NCBI GenBank assembly: GCA_016210805.1
Contig: JACQTL010000179.1
Span: forward strand, 1-29,514
Source: Actinomycetota bacterium
GTDB taxonomy: Bacteria > Actinomycetota > UBA4738 > G016210805
DNA: 29,514 nt
Direction of reading: 5' to 3'
Part shown: positions 15,958 to 22,912 of the stretch, one piece after another
How positions within the stretch are numbered: position 1 is the stretch's first letter
How the letters are laid out: every line of letters begins with the position of its first letter
Notes under the pieces: model-generated
The model's database searches: none
Seen by the model: only the letters and a program-made list of their open reading frames with translations
Told to the model about the DNA's origin: nothing
Made by a program: the position numbers and the translations under genes

Positions 15958-16953
15958 CTACAGCAGGACGGAGCGGCGGGACATCAGGTTCCGGTACAGC
16001 GACTGCTGGATCACGTCGCGGATCCGGTCGGTGAGCTCGAAGACCAGCATGGCGTCCTGCCAGGCGTCGTCGGGCTGGTCCTCCGTGTGGATGGGCTCGC
16101 CGAACTCCACGATCCACTTCGACGGCAGGGGGATCGCGCCGAGGGGCCCGAGCCACGGGAAGAGCGGGGTGACCGGGAAGTAGGGGAGGTCGAACAGGCG
16201 GGCCAGGATCCGGATGTCTCCGATCTTAGGGTAGATCTCCTCCGACCCCACGATGGACACGGGGATCACCGGTACCTTCGCCCGCAGCGCGAGCTCGATG
16301 AACCCGCCCCGCCCGAAGCGCTGGAGCCTGTACCGGTCGCGATAGCTCTTCCCGACCCCCTTGTAGCCCTCCGGGAACACCCCGAGGAGCTCCCCCTCCG
16401 AGAGGAGCCGGAAGGCGTCATCGGCGTTGGCCGGGGAGTTCCCGGACTTGCGGGCCAGCGGGGCGATGAACGGCATCCGGAACGCGAGATCGGCGGCCAG
16501 GAGGCGGACGTGCCGCCTGGCCGGGTGCCGGTCGAGCACGCCGAACTTCATCATCACGGCGTCCACGGGGATCGTCCCGGCGTGGTTGGCCACGAGGAGA
16601 GCCCCTCCCTCGGGGGGCACGTTCTCCATCCCCCGCCACTCGATCCGGAACCACCGGTCCATCAGCGGGCGGGCCAGCGGGAGCAGGATCCGCTCGGTCA
16701 GCTCGCGGTCGAAGCCGTACCGATCGACCTCGTAGTCGCCGGTCATCCTCCGGGCCAGGGACCGGAGGACCTCGCGCACCGCCTCGGCCGAGAACGGCCC
16801 GATGCGTTCCGGTGCGGCGGGGAGGTGGACCCGGCAGAACCCCGTGTCGCCTACGGCCCGGTTCCGGCACCTCCGTCCGCTCGCCGTGAGCGCCCTGCAC
16901 CGCCCGGGGTCCGCGCGCGACAGGGGGAGCTCGATCACCTGGGCCACGGTCAC
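15958..16953 (-). CDS. Lysophospholipid/glycerol acyltransferase (Rv0502-like) with N-terminal CCCH zinc-finger-like insert
   Basis: GTG 16953 overlaps the epimerase stop (GTGA). Motifs NHAGTIPVD (HX4D), VFPEGYKG, FGRGGF and PVSIVGSEE; family-typical DYEVDRYGFD. Confidence 0.9.
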   Translation of the reverse strand: MTVAQVIELPLSRADPGRCRALTASGRRCRNRAVGDTGFCRVHLPAAPERIGPFSAEAVREVLRSLARRMTGDYEVDRYGFDRELTERILLPLARPLMDRWFRIEWRGMENVPPEGGALLVANHAGTIPVDAVMMKFGVLDRHPARRHVRLLAADLAFRMPFIAPLARKSGNSPANADDAFRLLSEGELLGVFPEGYKGVGKSYRDRYRLQRFGRGGFIELALRAKVPVIPVSIVGSEEIYPKIGDIRILARLFDLPYFPVTPLFPWLGPLGAIPLPSKWIVEFGEPIHTEDQPDDAWQDAMLVFELTDRIRDVIQQSLYRNLMSRRSVLL

Positions 16954-18002
16954 TCCCTCCCGCCGGCCGGGGCCGGCTCCTCCGACCGACGGCGGAGGAA
17001 CTCGTAGACGTCCCGCTCCCACTCCTCCACCCGCTCCGGGGTGATCAGCCGGCGGAGGCGCCGCTTCTCCGCGAAGTCGAGCAGCGTGTCCCTTGTGGTG
17101 TGCCGGAACCGGTAGCCGAATCCGTCCTTCAGGCGGCCGTTGTCGGCCACCCGGCCGTACAGCAGGAAGCGGAGCTGGTCGGTGGCGTAGTCCACCAGCC
17201 CCACCCGGCGGAGCACGGCCCCGAGCGGGCGGACCAGGGGCAGGGGCACGGGCACCGGCGGGCGCCCGAGGGTCCGCAGCGCCTGGGACAGGTAGACGAC
17301 CCCGTCGGCGGCCACGTTGTAGATGCCCGGGTGGTGCTCCCGGACGGCGCGGTCCAGGACCTCGATCGCGTCCTCCTCGTGGATCAGCTGGATACGCGGG
17401 TCGAACCCGAGCGGGGTGGGGATCAGCGGGAGCGAGAAGTACCGCGTGAGCGTGGTCTCGATGTCGGGGCCCAGGAAGTTCGCGAAACGAAGGATCGTGA
17501 GGTCCACGTCGGGACGGCGCCGGCCGAAGTCGCGGGCGTACTGCTCGACCTCGACCGAGTCCTTCGAGTACCCGGTCCGGGGCACCGAGCGCGCGCTCAT
17601 GTCCTCGGTGAAGAGGGACGGGTCGCGGGGGTCGGCCCCGTAGACGGCCGTCGTGGACTTGACGATGACCCGCTTGACCCGCTCGGCCTTCTGGCACGCC
17701 GCGAAGAGCTGGAGCGTGCCGATCACGTTGAGCTCCTTCATCGCCGCCCGCCCGCCGACCCGGGGCGGCGTGGCCACGATGTTGGGGTGGACCACCGTGT
17801 CGACCTCCGTGGTCTGGAGGATCTTCACGACGAGCGGGTTGCGGATGTCGGCCCGGACGTACTCGGTGCGTTCCAGGTCCAGCTCGGGCTCGTCGAGGTC
17901 CACGCCGACCAGGTACTCGACGTCGGGGTCCTGCTCCAGGCGCCGGGCCAGGTGCCCACCGAGGAACCGGGAGACCCCCGTGATCAGCACTCGCCGTCCC
18001 AA
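16950..18002 (-). CDS. NAD-dependent epimerase/dehydratase (Rv0501/GalE2-like)
   Basis: TTG start; RVLITGVSRFLG, ELNVIGTLQL, KSTTAVYG and LRFANFLGP. Sits in its conserved position upstream of the acyltransferase. Confidence 0.9.
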   Translation of the reverse strand: MGRRVLITGVSRFLGGHLARRLEQDPDVEYLVGVDLDEPELDLERTEYVRADIRNPLVVKILQTTEVDTVVHPNIVATPPRVGGRAAMKELNVIGTLQLFAACQKAERVKRVIVKSTTAVYGADPRDPSLFTEDMSARSVPRTGYSKDSVEVEQYARDFGRRRPDVDLTILRFANFLGPDIETTLTRYFSLPLIPTPLGFDPRIQLIHEEDAIEVLDRAVREHHPGIYNVAADGVVYLSQALRTLGRPPVPVPLPLVRPLGAVLRRVGLVDYATDQLRFLLYGRVADNGRLKDGFGYRFRHTTRDTLLDFAEKRRLRRLITPERVEEWERDVYEFLRRRSEEPAPAGGRE

Positions 18003-18061
18003 GTGGGCTCCGCTCCCTCCCAGCTGGTCCGCGCCTCGCCCGGTCCGAGGAGGCGGCGGGC

Positions 18062-18868
18062 TCAGACCCCCGCCGGCGGGGTCAGGATAACAGCGTCCCC
18101 CCGGCCGACGGCGAGGGCCACCGCCGCGCTCCCCCCGTTGGCCACGACGGCCAGCCAGCCCGAGGAGTCCACCAGGAAGGCGAGCTCGCGCGGTCCGACG
18201 TCCGCGTACGAGGCCACCCGGCGGAGGGTGTACGGGTCCACCGTGACGGCGTCCCCCAGCCCGGCCGTGGCCAGGTGCTGGGGCCGGACGTTCAGCTGGA
18301 CGTTCCCGAAGCGATCCACGGAGAGCACCCTGGCCTCGATCCGCCCGTCCCCCACCACCGGCGCGGGCACCCCGACCCGGACCAGCCCTCCGCCCGACAC
18401 GGCGGAGCCGACCTCCTCGAGGGCGAGGCCGGCGGCCAGGTGGGCGGCCACCGGGGAGAAGACGTCCCGGCCGTGGAACGTGGCCGAGACTGGCCTGCGG
18501 AAGAGGTCGTCGTTCTCGATGACCAGGGCCTGCCTGACGCCGCCGAGGACCTCCCAGGCCAGGGACAGGAGCCCGTTGTCCGGTCCCACGAGGATCGGCC
18601 CGGCGGCCGCCTCCACCGCGATCGGCCGGCGGGCCGTCCCCACGCCGGGATCGACGACGGCGAGGACGACGGCGTCGGCCGGCAGGTAGGGCGCCGCCCG
18701 GGCCAGGGTCAGCGCGCCCGCCAGGACGTCCTGCGGCGGGATGGCGTGGGTGAGGTCGATCACGCTCGCGTCCGGCGCGATCCCCGCGACCACCGCCTTG
18801 CAGACGCCGACGAACTCGTCCTCCACCCCGAAGTCCGTGAGGAACACGATAGGCCTGGCCACGGTCAC
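18062..18868 (-). CDS. SAM hydroxide adenosyltransferase (DUF62; fluorinase/chlorinase superfamily)
   Basis: TDFG, IDLTH, VVDPGVGTARR, GPDNGLL, TFHGRD and DRFGN. The Asp/Arg/His set typical of DUF62 hydrolases is present. Confidence 0.9.
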   Translation of the reverse strand: MTVARPIVFLTDFGVEDEFVGVCKAVVAGIAPDASVIDLTHAIPPQDVLAGALTLARAAPYLPADAVVLAVVDPGVGTARRPIAVEAAAGPILVGPDNGLLSLAWEVLGGVRQALVIENDDLFRRPVSATFHGRDVFSPVAAHLAAGLALEEVGSAVSGGGLVRVGVPAPVVGDGRIEARVLSVDRFGNVQLNVRPQHLATAGLGDAVTVDPYTLRRVASYADVGPRELAFLVDSSGWLAVVANGGSAAVALAVGRGDAVILTPPAGV

Positions 18869-19653
18869 AGGTTCTCCTCGATGAAGGCGAAGACGAGCTG
18901 GCGGGCTTCCTCGGCTCGGCCCTCGGTGAGGAGGGCGACCCCGTGGGCGTCGGTGGGGAGGATCTCGACCCGCTTGGGCGACCGGGAGGCCGTGTAGAAG
19001 GCCTGGGCGTCGCGGGCGGCGGGGCCGTCGCCGGTCCCGGCCAGGACGAGCTTGGGCGCGTATACCTTGAACAGGAGATCGGGTGTGGCGGCCAGGCCCT
19101 GGTAGGTCGCCGGGGCAGACAGGGTCACGACGCCGGTGAGCGGCTGGCCCTCGATCACCGGTCGGTCTTCGGCCAGGCGACCCGCGGCCACGAGCGCCGC
19201 CGTCCCTCCGATGTCCGCCCCCACGATCACCACCCGCCTGGCCCCGCGCTCCCGGAGCAGGTCGAACGCGGCGGTCACGTCCCGCCAGGTCTGCGGCACG
19301 TCCCGGGTTCCCCCCGAGCAGCCGGCCTCACCACCGGGACAGTACCCCCGGAGGTCGAACGTGAGGACGAGGTGGCCCCGGTCGGCCAGCTCCCCGGCGG
19401 TCTCGAACCAGTCGGACTGGTCCCCGTCGAGGCCGTGCACGAGGACCACTCCCCCGGCGCCGTCCCCGAACAACCGCCCGTCGAGCTCCACGCCGTCGGA
19501 GGTCCGGAACGTCACGGCCTCCGCTCCGGCCAGGGCCCACTCCGCCCGGCCGGACTGCCGGCACGCGCCGGCCAAGAGGAGGAGCAGGAGGACGAGAGCG
19601 ACGGGGTTGGGCCGGCCGGGCCGCCGGGCGAAGGTCGCCGCGCGCCTGCGCAC
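18865..19653 (-). CDS. Exported alpha/beta hydrolase (probable lipoprotein) with G-A-D-I-G nucleophile elbow
   Basis: Signal ...LLLLLLAGAC, then FRTSDGVELDG, VLVHG, FDLRGY, GADIGG, GTGD and DAHG. GTGA overlap with DUF62. Confidence 0.82.
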   Translation of the reverse strand: MRRRAATFARRPGRPNPVALVLLLLLLAGACRQSGRAEWALAGAEAVTFRTSDGVELDGRLFGDGAGGVVLVHGLDGDQSDWFETAGELADRGHLVLTFDLRGYCPGGEAGCSGGTRDVPQTWRDVTAAFDLLRERGARRVVIVGADIGGTAALVAAGRLAEDRPVIEGQPLTGVVTLSAPATYQGLAATPDLLFKVYAPKLVLAGTGDGPAARDAQAFYTASRSPKRVEILPTDAHGVALLTEGRAEEARQLVFAFIEENL

Positions 19654-19669
19654 GGCCCTGCTACCCGGC

Positions 19670-19771
19670 CTACCGGCCCTGCTGCCGGCGCTGCCAGCGG
19701 GTCTTCTTGAGCAGCTTCTTGTGCTTCTTCTTCCGCATCTTCTTGCGGCGCTTCTTGACCAGCGACGGCAC
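19670..19771 (-). CDS. 30S ribosomal protein bS22 (AURKAIP1/COX24 domain)
   Basis: Absent from the track. GTG start gives MPSLVKKRRKKMRKKKHKKLLKKTRWQRRQQGR (33 aa), the bS22/Rv0500B pattern, in its conserved neighbourhood. Confidence 0.93.
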   Translation of the reverse strand: MPSLVKKRRKKMRKKKHKKLLKKTRWQRRQQGR

Positions 19772-19812
19772 GCGTTCGTCCTTCCCTCTTCAGCCTGGAT
19801 GGGGCGGGCCGA

Positions 19813-20703
19813 TCAGTCGGTCCCGAACAGGTTCCGGAGATCGACCCGCTTCGCCCGGAAGGCCTCATCCAGGCGAACCGAGCCCAGTCTAAGGGCCTTG
19901 GGCGCCTCTGCCACGGGCGAGATCAGCCGGAGGACCCCCTCGTCGGCGGAGTGCTCGAGGTAGCCCATCCCGATCGTGCTCCCCGCGCCATCGGACAGGC
20001 CGACCAGGAGGCGGTCCAGCTCCTCGAGCTCGAAGAGAGCCGGGAGCGCCGGCATGAACACCGTGGGCTTGACCCGGTACCGCTGGAGGGGCTCGGCGAA
20101 GTACCGGCGCATGGCCTCCTCGCGGTTCGCGGCCCGCTGCTCGACGGACGTCGGGACGACCTCCGGGTGGACGGGGAGCGCGGCGACGTCCGTGGCGAAG
20201 AACCGGTTCAGGATCCCCAGGATGGGATCGAGCTCGCCCCCCCGCTTCAGCCCGATCACCAGCTCGGGCCGGAGGAGGTCGACCTTGTGGTACTTGAGGA
20301 TCTGCCCGTACACCCCGCTGACCAGGCCCGACGTGTCCACGACCACGAACTCGGCGCCGGCCTCCCGGGCCCGGGCCAGGAGGCTGGCCGCCCCCGCCAC
20401 CACGGGGAGCAGGTGTCCCTGGGGCGAGGTGGCCCCCACGAAGTAGATCGAGTCGGCAACGGCCAGGACGGCCGGCTCGAGGTCCGCCGCCGAGCGGACG
20501 AGCTTCATCCCCACCGTGGCCGGCGGTCCCACGCTCTTCTGCCCGAGGTCCACGTCGAGGAAGGCGGTGGTCCGGCCGTGCTCCAGGGCGGCCCGGATCA
20601 TGCGCAGCGCCGTCGTGGTCTTCCCGGAGTCGAGCCCGCCGACCAGCGCGACGGTGTTCGCCCTGGTCACCGCTCGCTCGATGAGCAGCTGATAGTCGTC
20701 CAC
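19813..20703 (-). CDS. Clp1/Nol9/Grc3-family polynucleotide 5'-hydroxyl kinase
   Basis: Walker A GGLDSGKT, Walker B DVDLGQ followed by GPP, YFVGATSP, clasp-like DTSG, lid RAANR...RYF and an archaeal-Clp1-like C-terminus LVGLSD...GMGYL...LGSVRL. Confidence 0.88.
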   Translation of the reverse strand: MDDYQLLIERAVTRANTVALVGGLDSGKTTTALRMIRAALEHGRTTAFLDVDLGQKSVGPPATVGMKLVRSAADLEPAVLAVADSIYFVGATSPQGHLLPVVAGAASLLARAREAGAEFVVVDTSGLVSGVYGQILKYHKVDLLRPELVIGLKRGGELDPILGILNRFFATDVAALPVHPEVVPTSVEQRAANREEAMRRYFAEPLQRYRVKPTVFMPALPALFELEELDRLLVGLSDGAGSTIGMGYLEHSADEGVLRLISPVAEAPKALRLGSVRLDEAFRAKRVDLRNLFGTD

Positions 20704-20757
20704 TGCGCCTCCGGGTTCGGGTCCGCGGACCCCTCCCGCAGGCGTCGCCTCGTCGCG

Positions 20758-20955
20758 CTAGCCGGCTTCCGTGTACCGCTGGTTCAGGTAGTGGTGGACC
20801 TCGTCCTCCCGGAGCCTGTACCCCCGTCCCACCCGGACGGCGGGCAGCTCTCCCTGGTTGATAAGCCGGTACACGGTCATCCTGGACACCCGCATGAGCT
20901 GTGCGACCTCACTCACGGTGACGAAACGAGCCTGGTAGAAGGAGTCCCTTGCCAT
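20758..20955 (-). CDS. Excisionase-like helix-turn-helix DNA-binding protein (Rv0500A/BdtA-like)
   Basis: FVTVSEVAQLMRVSRMTVYRLINQGELPAVRVGRGYR; conserved chromosomal position upstream of bS22. Confidence 0.92.
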   Translation of the reverse strand: MARDSFYQARFVTVSEVAQLMRVSRMTVYRLINQGELPAVRVGRGYRLREDEVHHYLNQRYTEAG

Positions 20956-20964
20956 TTCGGGGCG

Positions 20965-20970
20965 ATTCTA
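20965..20970 (-). promoter_or_regulatory. Housekeeping-type -10 element (TAGAAT) for the HTH - Clp1 - bS22 run
   Basis: Near-consensus hexamer 9 nt upstream of ATG 20955, in otherwise GC-rich DNA. Confidence 0.55.
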
Positions 20971-21023
20971 CCGGGCGGGGCCCACCGGCAGACAGCCCGT
21001 ACGCCCGGGTCGCGCCCCGAACG

Positions 21024-21854
21024 TCAGGAGAGCTTCGCGGCGATGGCCTGGAAGCAGGGCCAGTAGGACTCGGGGCGGACGTTGTCGTCCATCACGATCA
21101 CGGGGCCACACCGGCCCTGGGACCGGGCCACGATCAGGGCCGGGTCGTTCACGTCAGCGATCGAGATCGTCTCCACGCCGGCCTCGATCGCCGCTCCGGC
21201 GAAGCCGTGGTCGGCGAACACGAGGTCGGGGCGGACCTCGGCGAGCATCCGCTCCATGGGCTCGGGGCTGTGGGTGTGCACGGCCGAGCCGTGCTTGACG
21301 AGGACGGCGACGCCGTGGAGGTAGCGGATCTCCCGCCGGGTTCCCCGCCGGCCGCCCCTCCAGGCCTCCCCGTCGGACGGGGTGAGCAGCTCGACCCCCC
21401 GGGCCGCGAGGAGCCGTCCGACCTCCATGTAGAGCAGGGGCAGCCCCGTGGGGTGGCCGGTGGCCAGGATCACCCGCTCGCCCCGGCGACAGGCCAGGGC
21501 CAGCCGCTCGCCGACCTCCTCGCACGCTGCCAGGACCCGCTCCGGGTCGACCTCCACGGGACCCCACCGGACCCGGCGGTCGGGCGCGAAACCGGCGGCC
21601 CGGCCGACCAGCTCCAGCGCCTCGCGGGCCGAGCAGCTCCCGGCCAGGCCGGTCATCCCGAACTGGAGGATCGGGTCGCCCTCGCACAGCCGACCGATCT
21701 TCCACAGGACGTTGTCCATCGGATGGCTGACCTCGATGCCTGCCGCCCCGCCGGACAGGAGGCCGCGGACCAGCTCGTCGCGCGGGTACGATCGCGGCGT
21801 CCACCGGTCGTCGGGGACCGGCAGCCGGCGGATGTGAGCTTCCATGGAGGACAT
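21024..21854 (-). CDS. Actinobacterial 'phosphatase' family protein (PF15698-like)
   Basis: Motifs ILATGHP, HTHSP, FADHG, ADVNDPAL and MDDNV. Start placed at ATG 21854, 7 nt after -10 TACCAT (21862-21867), so leaderless. Conserved position between acuC and the HTH gene. Confidence 0.8.
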   Translation of the reverse strand: MSSMEAHIRRLPVPDDRWTPRSYPRDELVRGLLSGGAAGIEVSHPMDNVLWKIGRLCEGDPILQFGMTGLAGSCSAREALELVGRAAGFAPDRRVRWGPVEVDPERVLAACEEVGERLALACRRGERVILATGHPTGLPLLYMEVGRLLAARGVELLTPSDGEAWRGGRRGTRREIRYLHGVAVLVKHGSAVHTHSPEPMERMLAEVRPDLVFADHGFAGAAIEAGVETISIADVNDPALIVARSQGRCGPVIVMDDNVRPESYWPCFQAIAAKLS

Positions 21855-21861
21855 CCCACCG

Positions 21862-22125
21862 ATGGTACGGGAACCGGACACGCCCGCCCCGCTCGCCTCC
21901 AGGAGGTTCGGACCCGAGCGGCGGGCCGACTTCTTCGCCCTGCACTCCACGGCCAACGGCTGCGGCTGGTGCCGCTGCGTGGCCTGGTGGGTCCCGACCT
22001 GGGACGGCTGGTCGGCACCCTCCGCGGAGGAGTCGGTCCCAACCGCCTGGCCCCTCACGACGGATCGCCCGCTGTGGTTGCATGTTCCGGCCGCCCGGGC
22101 GCGTTGCCCGGCGATCCGGAGGTAA
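21862..22125 (+). pseudogene. Probable truncated GNAT acetyltransferase remnant (N-terminal fragment)
   Basis: RRADFFALHSTANGCGWCRCVAWWVPTWDGW...SAEE resembles, from memory, the N-terminus of GxCWC-type GNATs. Protein-like sequence and GC3 bias fade after about 22032. Confidence 0.45.
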
Positions 22126-22132
22126 GGCTGAG

Positions 22133-22912
22133 ATGATCGACCTGTCGCTTCAGGGCCGCACCGCCGTGGTGACGGGCGGGAGCAAGGGCATCGGGAGGGC
22201 CGTCGCCCTCGCGCTGGCCGGAGCCGGGGCCGACGTGGCGCTCGCCGCCCGCAAGCCCGAGGACCTCGAGAAGGCCGTCGCCGAGATCGAGGGCCTCGGC
22301 CGCAGGGCCCTGGGCGTCCCCACGGACGTCGGCGACCCGGAGCAGATCCGGGCGCTGGTGGAGCGCACCGCCGCGGAGTTCGGCGGGTTCGACATCCTGG
22401 TGAACAACGCCGGAGCGGCGCCGTTCTCCGCCACCGTCGACACGATGCGCCCCGACGGCTTCGAGAAGTACTTCCGGGTGAACTTCATCTCGGCCTGGTA
22501 CGCGTGCCACTTCGCCGCCCCCGTGCTCCTCCCGCGGGGGCCGGGCGCGTGCGTGCTGAACGTCGCGTCGGTGGCCGCGCTGATGGCCACCCCCTCGCTC
22601 AGCTACTACGGGACGGCGAAGGCCGCGATGGTCAGCCTGACCAGGACCCTGGCCCAGGAGTGGGCGGCCGACGGCGTCCGGGTGAATGCCGTGGCCCCCG
22701 GGTGGATCGACACGGACATGAACGCGATGCTCCGGGCGAGCCCCGACATCGAGCGGACGATCGTCTCGCAGATCCCGATCGGCCGGTGGGGCACGGCCGA
22801 GGACGTGGCCGCCGCGGCCCTGTTCCTGTGCTCTCCGGCCGCCTCGTTCATCACGGGGGCCACGCTCGTCGTGGACGGGGGCCAGACCATCACGGGCCGC
22901 CTGGTCCCGTAG
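22133..22912 (+). CDS. Short-chain dehydrogenase/reductase (FabG-like)
   Basis: TGGSKGIG, NNAG, YGTAK, NAVAPGWIDT and VDGG. Start ATG 22133 follows GGAGG. Confidence 0.92.
   Translation: MIDLSLQGRTAVVTGGSKGIGRAVALALAGAGADVALAARKPEDLEKAVAEIEGLGRRALGVPTDVGDPEQIRALVERTAAEFGGFDILVNNAGAAPFSATVDTMRPDGFEKYFRVNFISAWYACHFAAPVLLPRGPGACVLNVASVAALMATPSLSYYGTAKAAMVSLTRTLAQEWAADGVRVNAVAPGWIDTDMNAMLRASPDIERTIVSQIPIGRWGTAEDVAAAALFLCSPAASFITGATLVVDGGQTITGRLVP

What the first reader, a model, noticed from the sequence alone, without database searches (positions are those of the whole stretch)
19670..20970. Archaeal/eukaryote-type Clp1 RNA kinase inserted between the HTH gene and ribosomal protein bS22
Seen: an intact 296-aa Clp1-family protein with all four catalytic motifs sits 54 nt after the HTH stop and 41 nt before bS22, same strand, behind a TAGAAT -10. 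Established: the HTH and bS22 genes are normally adjacent (Rv0500A/B). Clp1/Nol9 phosphorylate RNA 5'-OH in tRNA splicing and rRNA processing, and bacterial members are sparse. No RNA ligase is present in this window. Inference: a bacterial RNA end-healing or ribosome-maturation function co-expressed with a ribosomal protein.
Basis: partly seen in the sequence, partly recalled or inferred. Interest (0 to 1): 0.66.

Follow-up and report, generated by a model that had tools for sequence, protein, structure and literature searches.

The report
Clp1-type RNA kinase beside bS22 gene
An uncultured groundwater actinobacterium carries a genuine Clp1-family nucleic-acid 5'-end kinase gene between a small DNA-binding protein gene and the tiny ribosomal protein gene bS22; this order is old and widespread in its relatives, but it looks like inherited gene order, with no shown link between the kinase and the ribosome.

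Summary
On the minus strand lie an excisionase-type HTH gene (20758-20955), a 296-aa Clp1-family gene (19813-20703) and bS22 (19670-19771), with gaps of 54 and 41 nt. The kinase matches Pfam CLP1_P (E 1e-32). Its AlphaFold model (pLDDT 93.7) matches human and worm Clp1 best.

One correction: the clasp motif is T-S-G-L, not TxGW. The tryptophan is Leu or Met in all 146 relatives checked.

The arrangement is not a one-off:
- Clp1 occurs in 145 of 151 genomes of the order and in 110 of 301 of the phylum sample.
- bS22 follows it in about 101 of 102 order loci (median gap 19 nt) and in five further families.

A functional tie to bS22 is not supported. One family keeps Clp1 with no bS22 detected, others have bS22 elsewhere, and Streptomyces-like genomes have HTH-bS22 without Clp1.

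End-healing for ligation is unlikely. The only RNA ligase found is RtcB with archease, which needs 5'-OH, and about 30% of relatives lack it.

A hairpin that buries the Clp1 ribosome-binding site is common in the order.

The scan has reported this cluster at least five times on other genomes. The gene is already annotated in public databases. It is a new member of a known kind and a moderate lead.

The parts
21024..21854 (-). Pfam PF15698 'Phosphatase' family gene, first gene of the conserved block. The listed ORF runs to a GTG at 22058, but relatives align only from about Met69, which is 21854.
   Evidence: PF15698 E 1.9e-56. Upstream of Clp1 in most loci, but also present in Clp1-less f27. 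AF2 model pLDDT 96 has no close PDB match.
20965..20970 (-). TAGAAT, a -10-like hexamer 9 nt before the HTH ATG. This implies a leaderless or near-leaderless transcript.
   Evidence: Sequence. TANNNT lies 8-10 nt before the HTH start in 14 of 23 loci found by a motif search. TAGNAT is conserved even where the HTH ORF has decayed. No -35 element was found.
20758..20955 (-). Excisionase-type HTH gene, 65 aa (Rv0500A-like).
   Evidence: HTH_17 E 1e-17; TIGR01764 E 5e-20. Rv0500A is a DNA-binding repressor in M. tuberculosis (PMC6375644).
20706..20744 (-). Hairpin in the HTH-Clp1 spacer. Its 3' arm holds the Clp1 Shine-Dalgarno sequence GGAGG (20708-20712).
   Evidence: MFE -33.7 kcal/mol, z only -1.2. 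SD pairing probability 0.80 here. In the order the mean is 0.88, against 0.63 for control genes. A helix of 7 bp or more occurs in 56% of order loci against 14% of controls; the window has an interrupted 5-bp version.
19813..20703 (-). Clp1-family polynucleotide 5'-hydroxyl kinase homologue, 296 aa. It has a PNK domain (about residues 1-204) and a beta-rich C-terminal domain (about 205-296), and no eukaryote-type N-terminal domain.
   Evidence: CLP1_P E 1e-32. Invariant catalytic residues. AF2 pLDDT 93.7. Foldseek top hits are human CLP1 8hmy_E (E 6e-20, TM 0.74), C. elegans Clp1, Grc3 and NOL9.
19772..19812 (-). 41-nt Clp1-bS22 spacer with an SD-like GGGAAGGA. No terminator.
   Evidence: The spacer median is 19 nt in the order.
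19670..19771 (-). Ribosomal protein bS22, 33 aa, GTG start. It is the only copy found in this genome.
   Evidence: NF047430 E 2e-13. Single hit in G000.
16950..19653 (-). Downstream co-directional genes of the same syntenic block: alpha/beta hydrolase (18865-19653), DUF62 SAM hydrolase (18062-18868) and a GalE-like epimerase (16950-18002).
   Evidence: Pfam and NCBIfam. Synteny.

Best explanation
The 296-aa protein is a genuine bacterial member of the Clp1 family. It is most likely an ATP-dependent kinase that adds a phosphate to 5'-OH ends of RNA, and less well of DNA. It consists of the kinase domain plus a Clp1-like C-terminal domain.

Its gene sits in an ancient, vertically inherited actinobacterial gene block: PF15698 protein - HTH - Clp1 - bS22 - (hydrolase) - SAM hydrolase - GalE. 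Here it is probably transcribed from the HTH promoter together with bS22. It is translated separately and weakly, because its ribosome-binding site lies inside a hairpin, whereas bS22 has its own exposed site.

Inferred role: a low-abundance housekeeping enzyme that converts 5'-OH RNA ends, left by metal-independent endonucleases or toxins, into 5'-monophosphate ends. That feeds them to 5'-monophosphate-sensing decay or processing enzymes (RNase E type, RNase J) instead of to ligation.

The position beside bS22 reflects conserved gene order and shared transcription, not a demonstrated job on the ribosome.

Shown: family membership, fold, motif conservation, synteny and phyletic patterns. Inferred: kinase activity, co-transcription, translational throttling and the physiological substrate.
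For: Identity:
- CLP1_P 113.8 bits.
- Profile alignment to human CLP1 covers Walker A, D-x-G-Q, the clasp and the lid.
- Invariant G22, D25, G27, K28, D50, D52, Q55, D123, G126, R190 and R194.
- AF2 pLDDT 93.7, and Foldseek hits to Clp1, Grc3 and NOL9 at E 1e-20 to 1e-9, against SRP GTPases at 1e-5.
- A bacterial Clp1 (Thermus scotoductus) has measured RNA 5'-kinase activity (PMC6777427).

Inheritance:
- 39/41 and 145/151 genomes of the order carry it, and 110/301 of the phylum sample.
- In the Clp1 tree the high-GC clade has 100/100 support, families are monophyletic, and bS22 linkage is the majority state with two nested losses.

Operon:
- All eight genes run in the same direction.
- The Clp1-bS22 gap has a median of 19 nt in the order, and about 101 of 102 order loci with enough flank have bS22 downstream.
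- No terminator was found.
- In 103 of 128 order loci the HTH ORF has decayed, yet its TAGNAT element and 5' part persist upstream of Clp1.

Throttled translation: SD-burying hairpin.

Not ligation-healing:
- RtcB and archease lie elsewhere, on contig C47. No RtcA and no Rnl-type ligase were found.
- RtcB was not found in 12 of 41 relatives.

5'-P theme: RNase J is present. A NUDIX gene overlaps the start of distant Clp1 genes in 4 of 12 loci.
Against: - No activity was measured.
- The clasp Trp is Leu or Met throughout the clade. Pillon et al. 2018 (PMC5900568) report that the clasp Trp is needed for Grc3 activity in vitro. Substrate binding may therefore differ.
- B. subtilis RNase J is reported to accept 5'-OH as well as 5'-P ends (PMC4652760), so a kinase may not be needed for that enzyme.
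- No transcript bridging Clp1 and bS22 was found. Soil metatranscriptome contigs covered only the conserved bS22 and HTH pieces.
- The hairpin in this window is an interrupted variant and is not significant against shuffles (z -1.2). Covariation in the family is limited.
- The genome is a MAG that is 84% complete, so absences are soft.
Confidence: 0.5

Rival explanations
1. A ribosome or rRNA maturation factor that works like eukaryotic Grc3/Nol9. Clp1 would phosphorylate a 5'-OH made by an unknown endonuclease in pre-rRNA. It would be co-expressed with bS22 because both act on the small subunit.
For: - Clp1 lies directly upstream of bS22 in about 101 of 102 order loci and in families f9, f11, f16, f18 and f52.
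- The fold also matches Grc3 and NOL9.
- Databases label the family 'polynucleotide 5'-kinase involved in rRNA processing', by transfer from eukaryotes.
Against: - f14 genomes (98-99% complete) keep Clp1 with no bS22 detected.
- f24 and f63 keep Clp1 with bS22 elsewhere.
- f27 and Corynebacterium have bS22 without Clp1.
- The whole neighbourhood, including unrelated metabolic genes, is equally syntenic.
- No Las1-like nuclease lies in the block.
- Clp1 translation appears throttled, unlike that of bS22.
Confidence: 0.15
2. The RNA-repair end-healing half of a heal-and-seal pathway. Clp1 would make the 5'-P end, the neighbouring PF15698 'phosphatase' would remove the 3'-P, and a ligase would seal.
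For: The PF15698 gene and Clp1 are neighbours in most loci, and directly adjacent in f14. T4 Pnk and bacterial Pnkp set the precedent for a kinase-phosphatase pairing (my own knowledge).
Against: - PF15698 sits at the same place in Clp1-less f27 genomes, so it is not tied to Clp1.
- Its activity is unverified: no PDB relative and no paper found.
- No Rnl-type RNA ligase was found in the genome.
- The ligase that is present, RtcB, needs 5'-OH and would be blocked by Clp1 (established biochemistry). It was not found in 12 of 41 relatives.
Confidence: 0.07
3. A DNA 5'-OH kinase for DNA break repair. It would prepare ends for an ATP-dependent DNA ligase.
For: Archaeal and Thermus Clp1 also phosphorylate DNA, less efficiently (PMC6777427). 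An ATP-dependent DNA ligase domain is present on contig C147. Loss of the clasp Trp, described as important for RNA specificity, could relax the preference for RNA.
Against: There is no physical or phyletic link to DNA repair genes in any locus examined. The family members characterised so far prefer RNA.
Confidence: 0.1
4. A catalytically diverged P-loop NTPase that binds ATP but is not a polynucleotide kinase, as in yeast Clp1. It might act as a scaffold or switch.
For: The clasp Trp is absent in all 146 sequences. To my own knowledge yeast Clp1 binds ATP without kinase activity.
Against: The catalytic Asp and Gln of Walker B, the P-loop Lys, and both lid arginines are invariant across sequences down to 28% identity. 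That pattern is expected of an active enzyme. Ts-Clp1 is active and, from an OCR-garbled figure, also appears to lack the Trp (T-D-G-Y, uncertain reading).
Confidence: 0.08

Closest known systems
Thermus scotoductus Ts-Clp1 (Saito et al. 2019, PMC6777427)
   Same: A short bacterial Clp1 with a CLP1_P kinase domain and no eukaryote-type N-terminal domain. It is the only bacterial member with measured RNA 5'-OH kinase activity.
   Different: Ts-Clp1 is 240 aa, and its lid is less conserved (Lys for one Arg). The protein here is 296 aa, has a Clp1-like C-terminal beta domain and keeps both lid arginines. That survey found Clp1 in 0.9% of complete bacterial genomes and in 0 of 244 Actinobacteria, and called it 'not lineage specific'. 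Here it is near-universal in an order and syntenic.
Pyrococcus horikoshii / P. furiosus Clp1 (archaeal PNK)
   Same: A stand-alone prokaryotic Clp1 kinase that acts on RNA and DNA 5'-OH ends.
   Different: The archaeal proteins are about 355-360 aa, with an archaeal C-terminal domain and often a longer N-terminus. Their biological context is tRNA-intron-rich archaea.
Human and C. elegans Clp1 (PDB 8hmy_E, 4ohv)
   Same: Best structural matches (E 6e-20 and 4e-19, TM 0.72-0.74 over about 300 columns). Walker A, D-x-G-Q and the lid arginines align.
   Different: About 20% identity. The eukaryotic proteins have an extra N-terminal domain of about 100 aa, a clasp T-x-G-W with Trp, and work inside the TSEN and CF IIm complexes.
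Grc3/Nol9 with Las1 (eukaryotic ITS2 pre-rRNA processing)
   Same: The same kinase family. A link to ribosome biogenesis is what the bS22 neighbourhood hints at.
   Different: No Las1-like HEPN nuclease is nearby. Grc3 and Nol9 are more than 600 aa and depend on Las1. The phyletic patterns found here argue against an obligatory ribosome link.
T4 Pnk and bacterial Pnkp-Hen1 end-healing systems
   Same: Possible functional analogy: a 5'-kinase next to a phosphoesterase.
   Different: A different kinase fold family. Those enzymes fuse kinase, phosphatase and often ligase domains. Here the 'phosphatase' neighbour is independent of Clp1, and no matching ligase was found.

Membership tests
Clp1 family polynucleotide 5'-hydroxyl kinases (Pfam CLP1_P, PF16575) | Match to the family profile above the curated cut-off | tested here: met
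   113.8 bits against a cut-off of 26.6, residues 22-203, profile positions 1-187 of 188. Whole-genome hit.
Clp1 family polynucleotide 5'-hydroxyl kinases (Pfam CLP1_P, PF16575) | Walker A / P-loop GxxxxGK[T/S] | tested here: met
   G22-G-L-D-S-G27-K28-T29. G22, G27 and K28 are invariant in 146 sequences. It aligns with human GPTDVGKS.
Clp1 family polynucleotide 5'-hydroxyl kinases (Pfam CLP1_P, PF16575) | Walker B [D/E]hhQ with the catalytic Asp and conserved Gln | tested here: met
   D52-L-G-Q55. D52 is invariant and Q55 is present in 141 of 146. It aligns with human D-V-G-Q.
Clp1 family polynucleotide 5'-hydroxyl kinases (Pfam CLP1_P, PF16575) | Clasp motif [T/S/L]xGW, with a Trp that stacks on the RNA base | tested here: not met
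   The motif is T124-S-G126-L127. T/S and G are conserved, but the Trp position is L (119), M (20) or other, and never W. This is a variant clasp. I still file the protein in the family on profile score, fold and the other motifs, and flag this departure.
Clp1 family polynucleotide 5'-hydroxyl kinases (Pfam CLP1_P, PF16575) | Lid arginines | tested here: met
   R190 and R194 are invariant in 146 sequences and align with the human R-R-E-C-R lid.
Clp1 family polynucleotide 5'-hydroxyl kinases (Pfam CLP1_P, PF16575) | Clp1 fold: PNK domain plus C-terminal domain | tested here: met
   AF2 pLDDT 93.7, pTM 0.91. The top 23 Foldseek PDB hits are all Clp1, Grc3 or NOL9, with TM up to 0.74 over about 300 columns. 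The eukaryotic N-terminal domain is absent.
Clp1 family polynucleotide 5'-hydroxyl kinases (Pfam CLP1_P, PF16575) | ATP-dependent phosphorylation of polynucleotide 5'-OH ends | not testable with these tools
   Needs a biochemical assay.
Ribosomal protein bS22 (NCBIfam NF047430) | Profile match above the cut-off, and the size and composition of the 33-aa basic peptide | tested here: met
   50.1 bits against a cut-off of 34. Single copy in the genome.
Excisionase-family HTH (TIGR01764 / Pfam HTH_17; Rv0500A-like) | Profile match above the cut-off | tested here: met
   71.5 bits against 28.8, and 64.5 bits against 27. Orthology to Rv0500A is inferred from position only.
Heal-and-seal RNA repair system | A 5'-P-dependent RNA ligase together with the kinase and a 3'-end phosphoesterase | tested here: not met
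   No PF09414 ligase was found in the genome, which is 84% complete. Only RtcB with archease was found, and these use 5'-OH. The PF15698 gene is not Clp1-specific.

The most novel reading that the evidence does not exclude
In deep-branching, mostly uncultured Actinomycetota, Clp1 is a dedicated small-subunit or rRNA-maturation kinase. It would be a bacterial counterpart of Grc3/Nol9, working with a still unidentified endonuclease and kept in one operon with bS22 for that reason. Lineages such as f14 would have lost bS22 secondarily.
Probability: 0.12. Interest if true: 0.75.

Novelty: new member of a known kind. Interest (0 to 1): 0.35.

Why it matters
Bacterial Clp1 kinases have been treated as rare, scattered curiosities with no known role. 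The published survey found them in 0.9% of complete bacterial genomes and in no Actinobacteria.

Here the gene is near-universal, vertically inherited and fixed in position across many lineages of uncultured Actinomycetota. That implies a conserved housekeeping role for 5'-OH RNA end phosphorylation in bacteria.

Defining that role would fill a gap in how bacteria deal with 5'-OH RNA ends left by toxins and metal-independent RNases. The fixed place beside bS22 gives a cheap, testable hypothesis about ribosome biogenesis. The comparative data collected here argue against an obligatory link.

Tried and rejected
1. Clp1 and the DUF62 SAM hydrolase as a functional pair. They stay neighbours even where bS22 is lost. 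But the SAM hydrolase is far more widespread (180 of 301 genomes, including Clp1-less f19 at 24 of 24) and is missing in 6 of 17 f4 genomes. Rejected: this is positional synteny only.

2. Clp1 as a partner or antagonist of RtcB. RtcB was not found in 12 of 41 Clp1-bearing relatives, several of them 94-97% complete. It is not a general dependency.

3. The PF15698 'phosphatase' as a Clp1-specific partner. It is present at the same position in Clp1-less f27 genomes. Its high-confidence model has no informative PDB match (best TM 0.45, to the ribosomal protein uS2 fold, which is probably generic). No paper was found, and the protein atlas returned only its own family.

4. tRNA introns. ARAGORN in intron mode gave 33 'introns' of up to 2.6 kb in this 70% GC genome. 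Normal mode found no tRNA in the window where intron mode had called one, so these are false positives. Uninformative.

5. RNA evidence for co-transcription. No run holds this organism's RNA. Soil metatranscriptome contigs matched only the conserved bS22 and HTH parts of relatives. Inconclusive.

6. RNAalifold on a MAFFT alignment of the Clp1 leaders gave no consensus structure, because the loops vary in length. I replaced it with SD-anchored counts and control genes.

7. Rfam gave only two sub-threshold chance hits in 19500-21200.

8. Naming the order. Public records say only 'Actinomycetota bacterium' or 'Actinomycetes bacterium', and one distant family is Candidatus Solincola. No cultured carrier was identified.

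9. No phylogeny rooted against named archaeal and bacterial Clp1 was built, because no named outgroup sequences were obtainable. 'Archaeal/eukaryote-type' therefore means family membership only.
Full report
**1. What is in the window**

On the minus strand a run of co-directional genes lies between 16950 and about 21854. In order:
- A PF15698 'Phosphatase'-family gene, 21024-21854. The listed ORF extends to 22058, but relatives align only from Met69.
- A 65-aa excisionase-type HTH gene, 20758-20955.
- A 296-aa Clp1-like gene, 19813-20703.
- The 33-aa ribosomal protein gene bS22, 19670-19771.
- An alpha/beta hydrolase, a DUF62 SAM hydrolase, a GalE-like epimerase and an acyltransferase.

TAGAAT lies 9 nt before the HTH ATG, which implies a leaderless or near-leaderless transcript. 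The consensus scan found neither a complete sigma-70 promoter nor an intrinsic terminator in 18000-22300.

The window comes from a MAG with 2.84 Mb, 413 contigs and 84% completeness. The MAG was assembled from a groundwater metagenome. Public records of relatives are labelled only 'Actinomycetota bacterium'.

**2. Is it a Clp1?**

- The protein scores 113.8 bits on Pfam CLP1_P, against a cut-off of 26.6, over the whole model.
- A profile of 44 relatives aligns to human CLP1 (E 3e-21) and to C. elegans Clp1, NOL9 and Grc3.
- The alignment places G22..G27-K28-T29 on the P-loop, D52-L-G-Q55 on the [D/E]hhQ Walker B, T124-S-G-L127 on the clasp, and R190/R194 on the lid.
- The motif definitions come from Pillon et al. 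2018 (PMC5900568) and Saito et al. 2019 (PMC6777427).
- Across 146 relatives, down to 28% identity, the P-loop Gly and Lys, D50, D52, D123, G126 and both arginines are invariant.
- The clasp Trp is never present. That position is Leu (119) or Met (20). So 'all four catalytic motifs' needs this correction.
- The active Thermus enzyme appears to have Tyr there. That reading comes from an OCR-garbled figure and is uncertain.
- An AlphaFold2 model is confident (pLDDT 93.7, pTM 0.91).
- Its 23 best PDB matches are all Clp1, Grc3 or NOL9. Human CLP1 scores E 6e-20 and TM 0.74 over about 300 columns. The next fold class, SRP GTPases, scores E 1e-5 and TM about 0.35.
- The protein therefore has the kinase domain and a Clp1-like C-terminal beta domain, and lacks the eukaryotic N-terminal domain.
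- Public databases already call close relatives 'polynucleotide 5'-hydroxyl-kinase GRC3/NOL9', 'Clp1/GlmU family protein' or 'polynucleotide 5'-kinase involved in rRNA processing'.

**3. Is the arrangement a one-off?**

No.
- CLP1_P was found in 39 of 41 relatives and in 145 of 151 genomes of the order (99 of 100 high-quality ones).
- It was found above the cut-off in 110 of 301 genomes sampled across the phylum.
- The only published survey found Clp1 in 0.9% of complete bacterial genomes and in 0 of 244 Actinobacteria. It concluded the gene is not lineage-specific (PMC6777427).
- Among 106 distinct Clp1 genes of the order, bS22 follows on the same strand in essentially every locus with enough flank. 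A motif search found 97, and tblastn added 4 of the remaining 5. The median gap is 19 nt, and 90 gaps are 60 nt or less.
- The same block, PF15698 - HTH - Clp1 - bS22 - SAM hydrolase - GalE, occurs in families f9, f11, f16, f18 and f52, where Clp1 is only 43-51% identical.
- In a maximum-likelihood tree these high-GC Clp1s form one clade (100/100 support). Families are monophyletic. bS22 linkage is the majority state with two nested losses: f14, and f24/f51/f63.
- Streptomyces-like genomes (f27, 7-10 Mb) have no Clp1. They carry PF15698 - HTH - bS22 - GalE at the corresponding place.
I could not decide whether it was inserted early or lost later in the large-genome lineages.

**4. Does the neighbourhood mean a shared function?**

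The comparative data argue against an obligatory link with bS22.
- Two f14 genomes (98-99% complete) keep Clp1, directly after the PF15698 gene, but gave no bS22 hit anywhere.
- f24 and f63 genomes keep Clp1 while bS22 lies hundreds of kilobases away or on another contig.
- f27 and the Corynebacterium control have bS22 without Clp1.
- The PF15698 gene is not Clp1-specific either.
- The SAM hydrolase, which stays next to Clp1 even where bS22 is gone, is much more widespread than Clp1 and is missing from several Clp1-bearing genomes.
- The block as a whole, including plainly unrelated metabolic genes, is simply very stable.

**5. Expression signals**

Three observations fit one transcript with differential translation.
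- The Clp1-bS22 spacers are too short for a promoter and carry only a ribosome-binding site.
- In 103 of 128 order loci no HTH ORF is recognisable. Instead there is a spacer of about 190-270 nt that keeps a TAGNAT hexamer and a conserved GAGGCACGGTTCGAACGCGTGA element. It aligns, with indels, to the promoter and 5' half of the intact HTH gene of this window (z 2-8 against shuffles). The promoter has been kept while the HTH decayed, as expected if it drives Clp1-bS22.
- The Clp1 Shine-Dalgarno sequence is buried in a hairpin formed with an upstream CCUCC-type anti-SD.
  - In the order the mean SD pairing probability is 0.88, against 0.63 for SD-bearing control ORFs of this genome.
  - 56% have a contiguous helix of 7 bp or more, against 14% of controls.
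  - 76 of 103 distinct leaders pair the SD adenine with an upstream U in a helix of about 9 bp.
  - Covariation is limited, because the core is the SD itself.
  - In this window the helix is an interrupted variant (CGCCU-G-CGGG / CCCG-G-AGGCG, 20706-20744; pairing probability 0.80) and is not significant against shuffles.
  - An earlier follow-up on another genome reported the same hairpin. I confirm it as a tendency of the family.

Direct RNA evidence could not be obtained. The metatranscriptome contigs that share words with this stretch cover only the conserved bS22 and HTH pieces of relatives, and none bridges a junction.

**6. What does it do?**

- RNA or DNA 5'-OH kinase activity is the family's only known chemistry, and it has been shown for a bacterial member.
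- End-healing for ligation is unlikely.
  - The genome has archease and RtcB on another contig. RtcB joins 3'-P or cyclic-P ends to 5'-OH ends, so a 5'-kinase would block it, not feed it.
  - No RtcA and no Rnl-type ligase were found.
  - RtcB was not found in 12 of 41 Clp1-bearing relatives.
- RNase J is present. However, B. subtilis RNase J is reported to accept 5'-OH ends as well (PMC4652760). The more plausible beneficiaries of 5'-phosphorylation are therefore 5'-monophosphate-sensing enzymes of the RNase E type. This is inference.
- A weak supporting hint: in the distant low-GC Clp1 clade a NUDIX hydrolase gene overlaps the Clp1 start in 4 of 12 loci. NUDIX is the family that includes RppH, which also makes 5'-monophosphate RNA ends.
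- A DNA-repair role cannot be excluded. An ATP-dependent DNA ligase is present, and the clasp variant may relax RNA specificity.

I therefore commit to the following reading. It is a low-abundance RNA 5'-OH kinase that channels cleaved RNA into 5'-P-dependent decay or processing. It is transcribed with bS22, and not shown to act on the ribosome. The enzymatic identity is likely (about 0.85). The physiological role is only moderately likely (about 0.3-0.35).

**7. Novelty**

- The enzyme family, its bacterial members and this gene's annotation are all known.
- What I did not find described, in the one survey read and four searches of the paper library, is the near-universal, syntenic occurrence in uncultured Actinomycetota, the W-to-L/M clasp variant, the SD hairpin and the erosion of the HTH.
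- This scan has already reported the same cluster on other genomes at least five times, with the same verdict.
- I class it as a new member of a known kind, of moderate interest.

**8. Unpublished genomes**

- G005, G030, G055, G101, G154, G198 and G265 are unpublished. They contribute to the tallies.
- They supply three rows (L005, L018, L167) in the synteny tables and the tree.
- No conclusion rests on them alone.
- They were not used in the alignments sent for structure prediction.

Noticed in passing
window 20704-20985, compared with L025, L023, L031 and other order loci: The HTH gene is intact in this window. In 103 of 128 loci of the same order no HTH ORF is recognisable. A spacer of about 190-270 nt keeps the TAGNAT hexamer and a GAGGCACGGTTCGAACGCGTGA element that aligns, with frameshifting indels, to the 5' half of the HTH gene. 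It looks like an eroded regulator gene whose promoter survives.
   Followed up: partly
L051:2248-2694, L060:993-1433, L061:995-1429, L065:989-1426: In a distant low-GC clade of Clp1 (28-38% identity, small genomes of the same phylum), a NUDIX hydrolase gene sits directly upstream of Clp1 and overlaps its start in 4 of 12 loci. Other loci have Sir2 or radical-SAM neighbours. None has bS22 nearby.
   Followed up: partly
window 21024-22058 (-): The PF15698 'Phosphatase' protein has invariant His/Asp motifs (G-H-P, H-T-H, D-H-G, D..D, D-D). Its AlphaFold model is very confident (pLDDT 96), yet it has no sequence hit in the PDB and only weak fold hits (TM 0.45 or less, to ribosomal protein uS2). 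I found no paper citing the family. Its true start is probably Met69 (21854), not the GTG at 22058.
   Followed up: partly
G254 and G314 (family f14); loci L163-L166: Large (4-6.5 Mb, 74% GC) genomes keep PF15698 - Clp1 - SAM hydrolase - GalE, with Clp1 starting 6-9 nt after the PF15698 gene. No HTH lies there and no bS22 hit was found anywhere in two genomes that are 98-99% complete. This may be a lineage that lost bS22.
   Followed up: partly
G000 contig C47: 5287-5697 and 6863-7036: An archease gene lies about 1.2 kb upstream of an RtcB gene that is cut off by the contig end. This RNA ligation pair is unlinked to the Clp1 locus.
   Followed up: no
window 18865-19653 and 18062-18868 (-): The alpha/beta hydrolase between bS22 and the SAM hydrolase is present in only part of the order. 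Many loci go directly from bS22 to the SAM hydrolase. It starts 16 nt after the bS22 stop and overlaps the SAM hydrolase start.
   Followed up: no
G000 whole genome: ARAGORN in intron mode intron-containing tRNAs, with introns up to 2.6 kb, in this high-GC MAG. These calls should not be used as evidence for tRNA splicing.
   Followed up: yes
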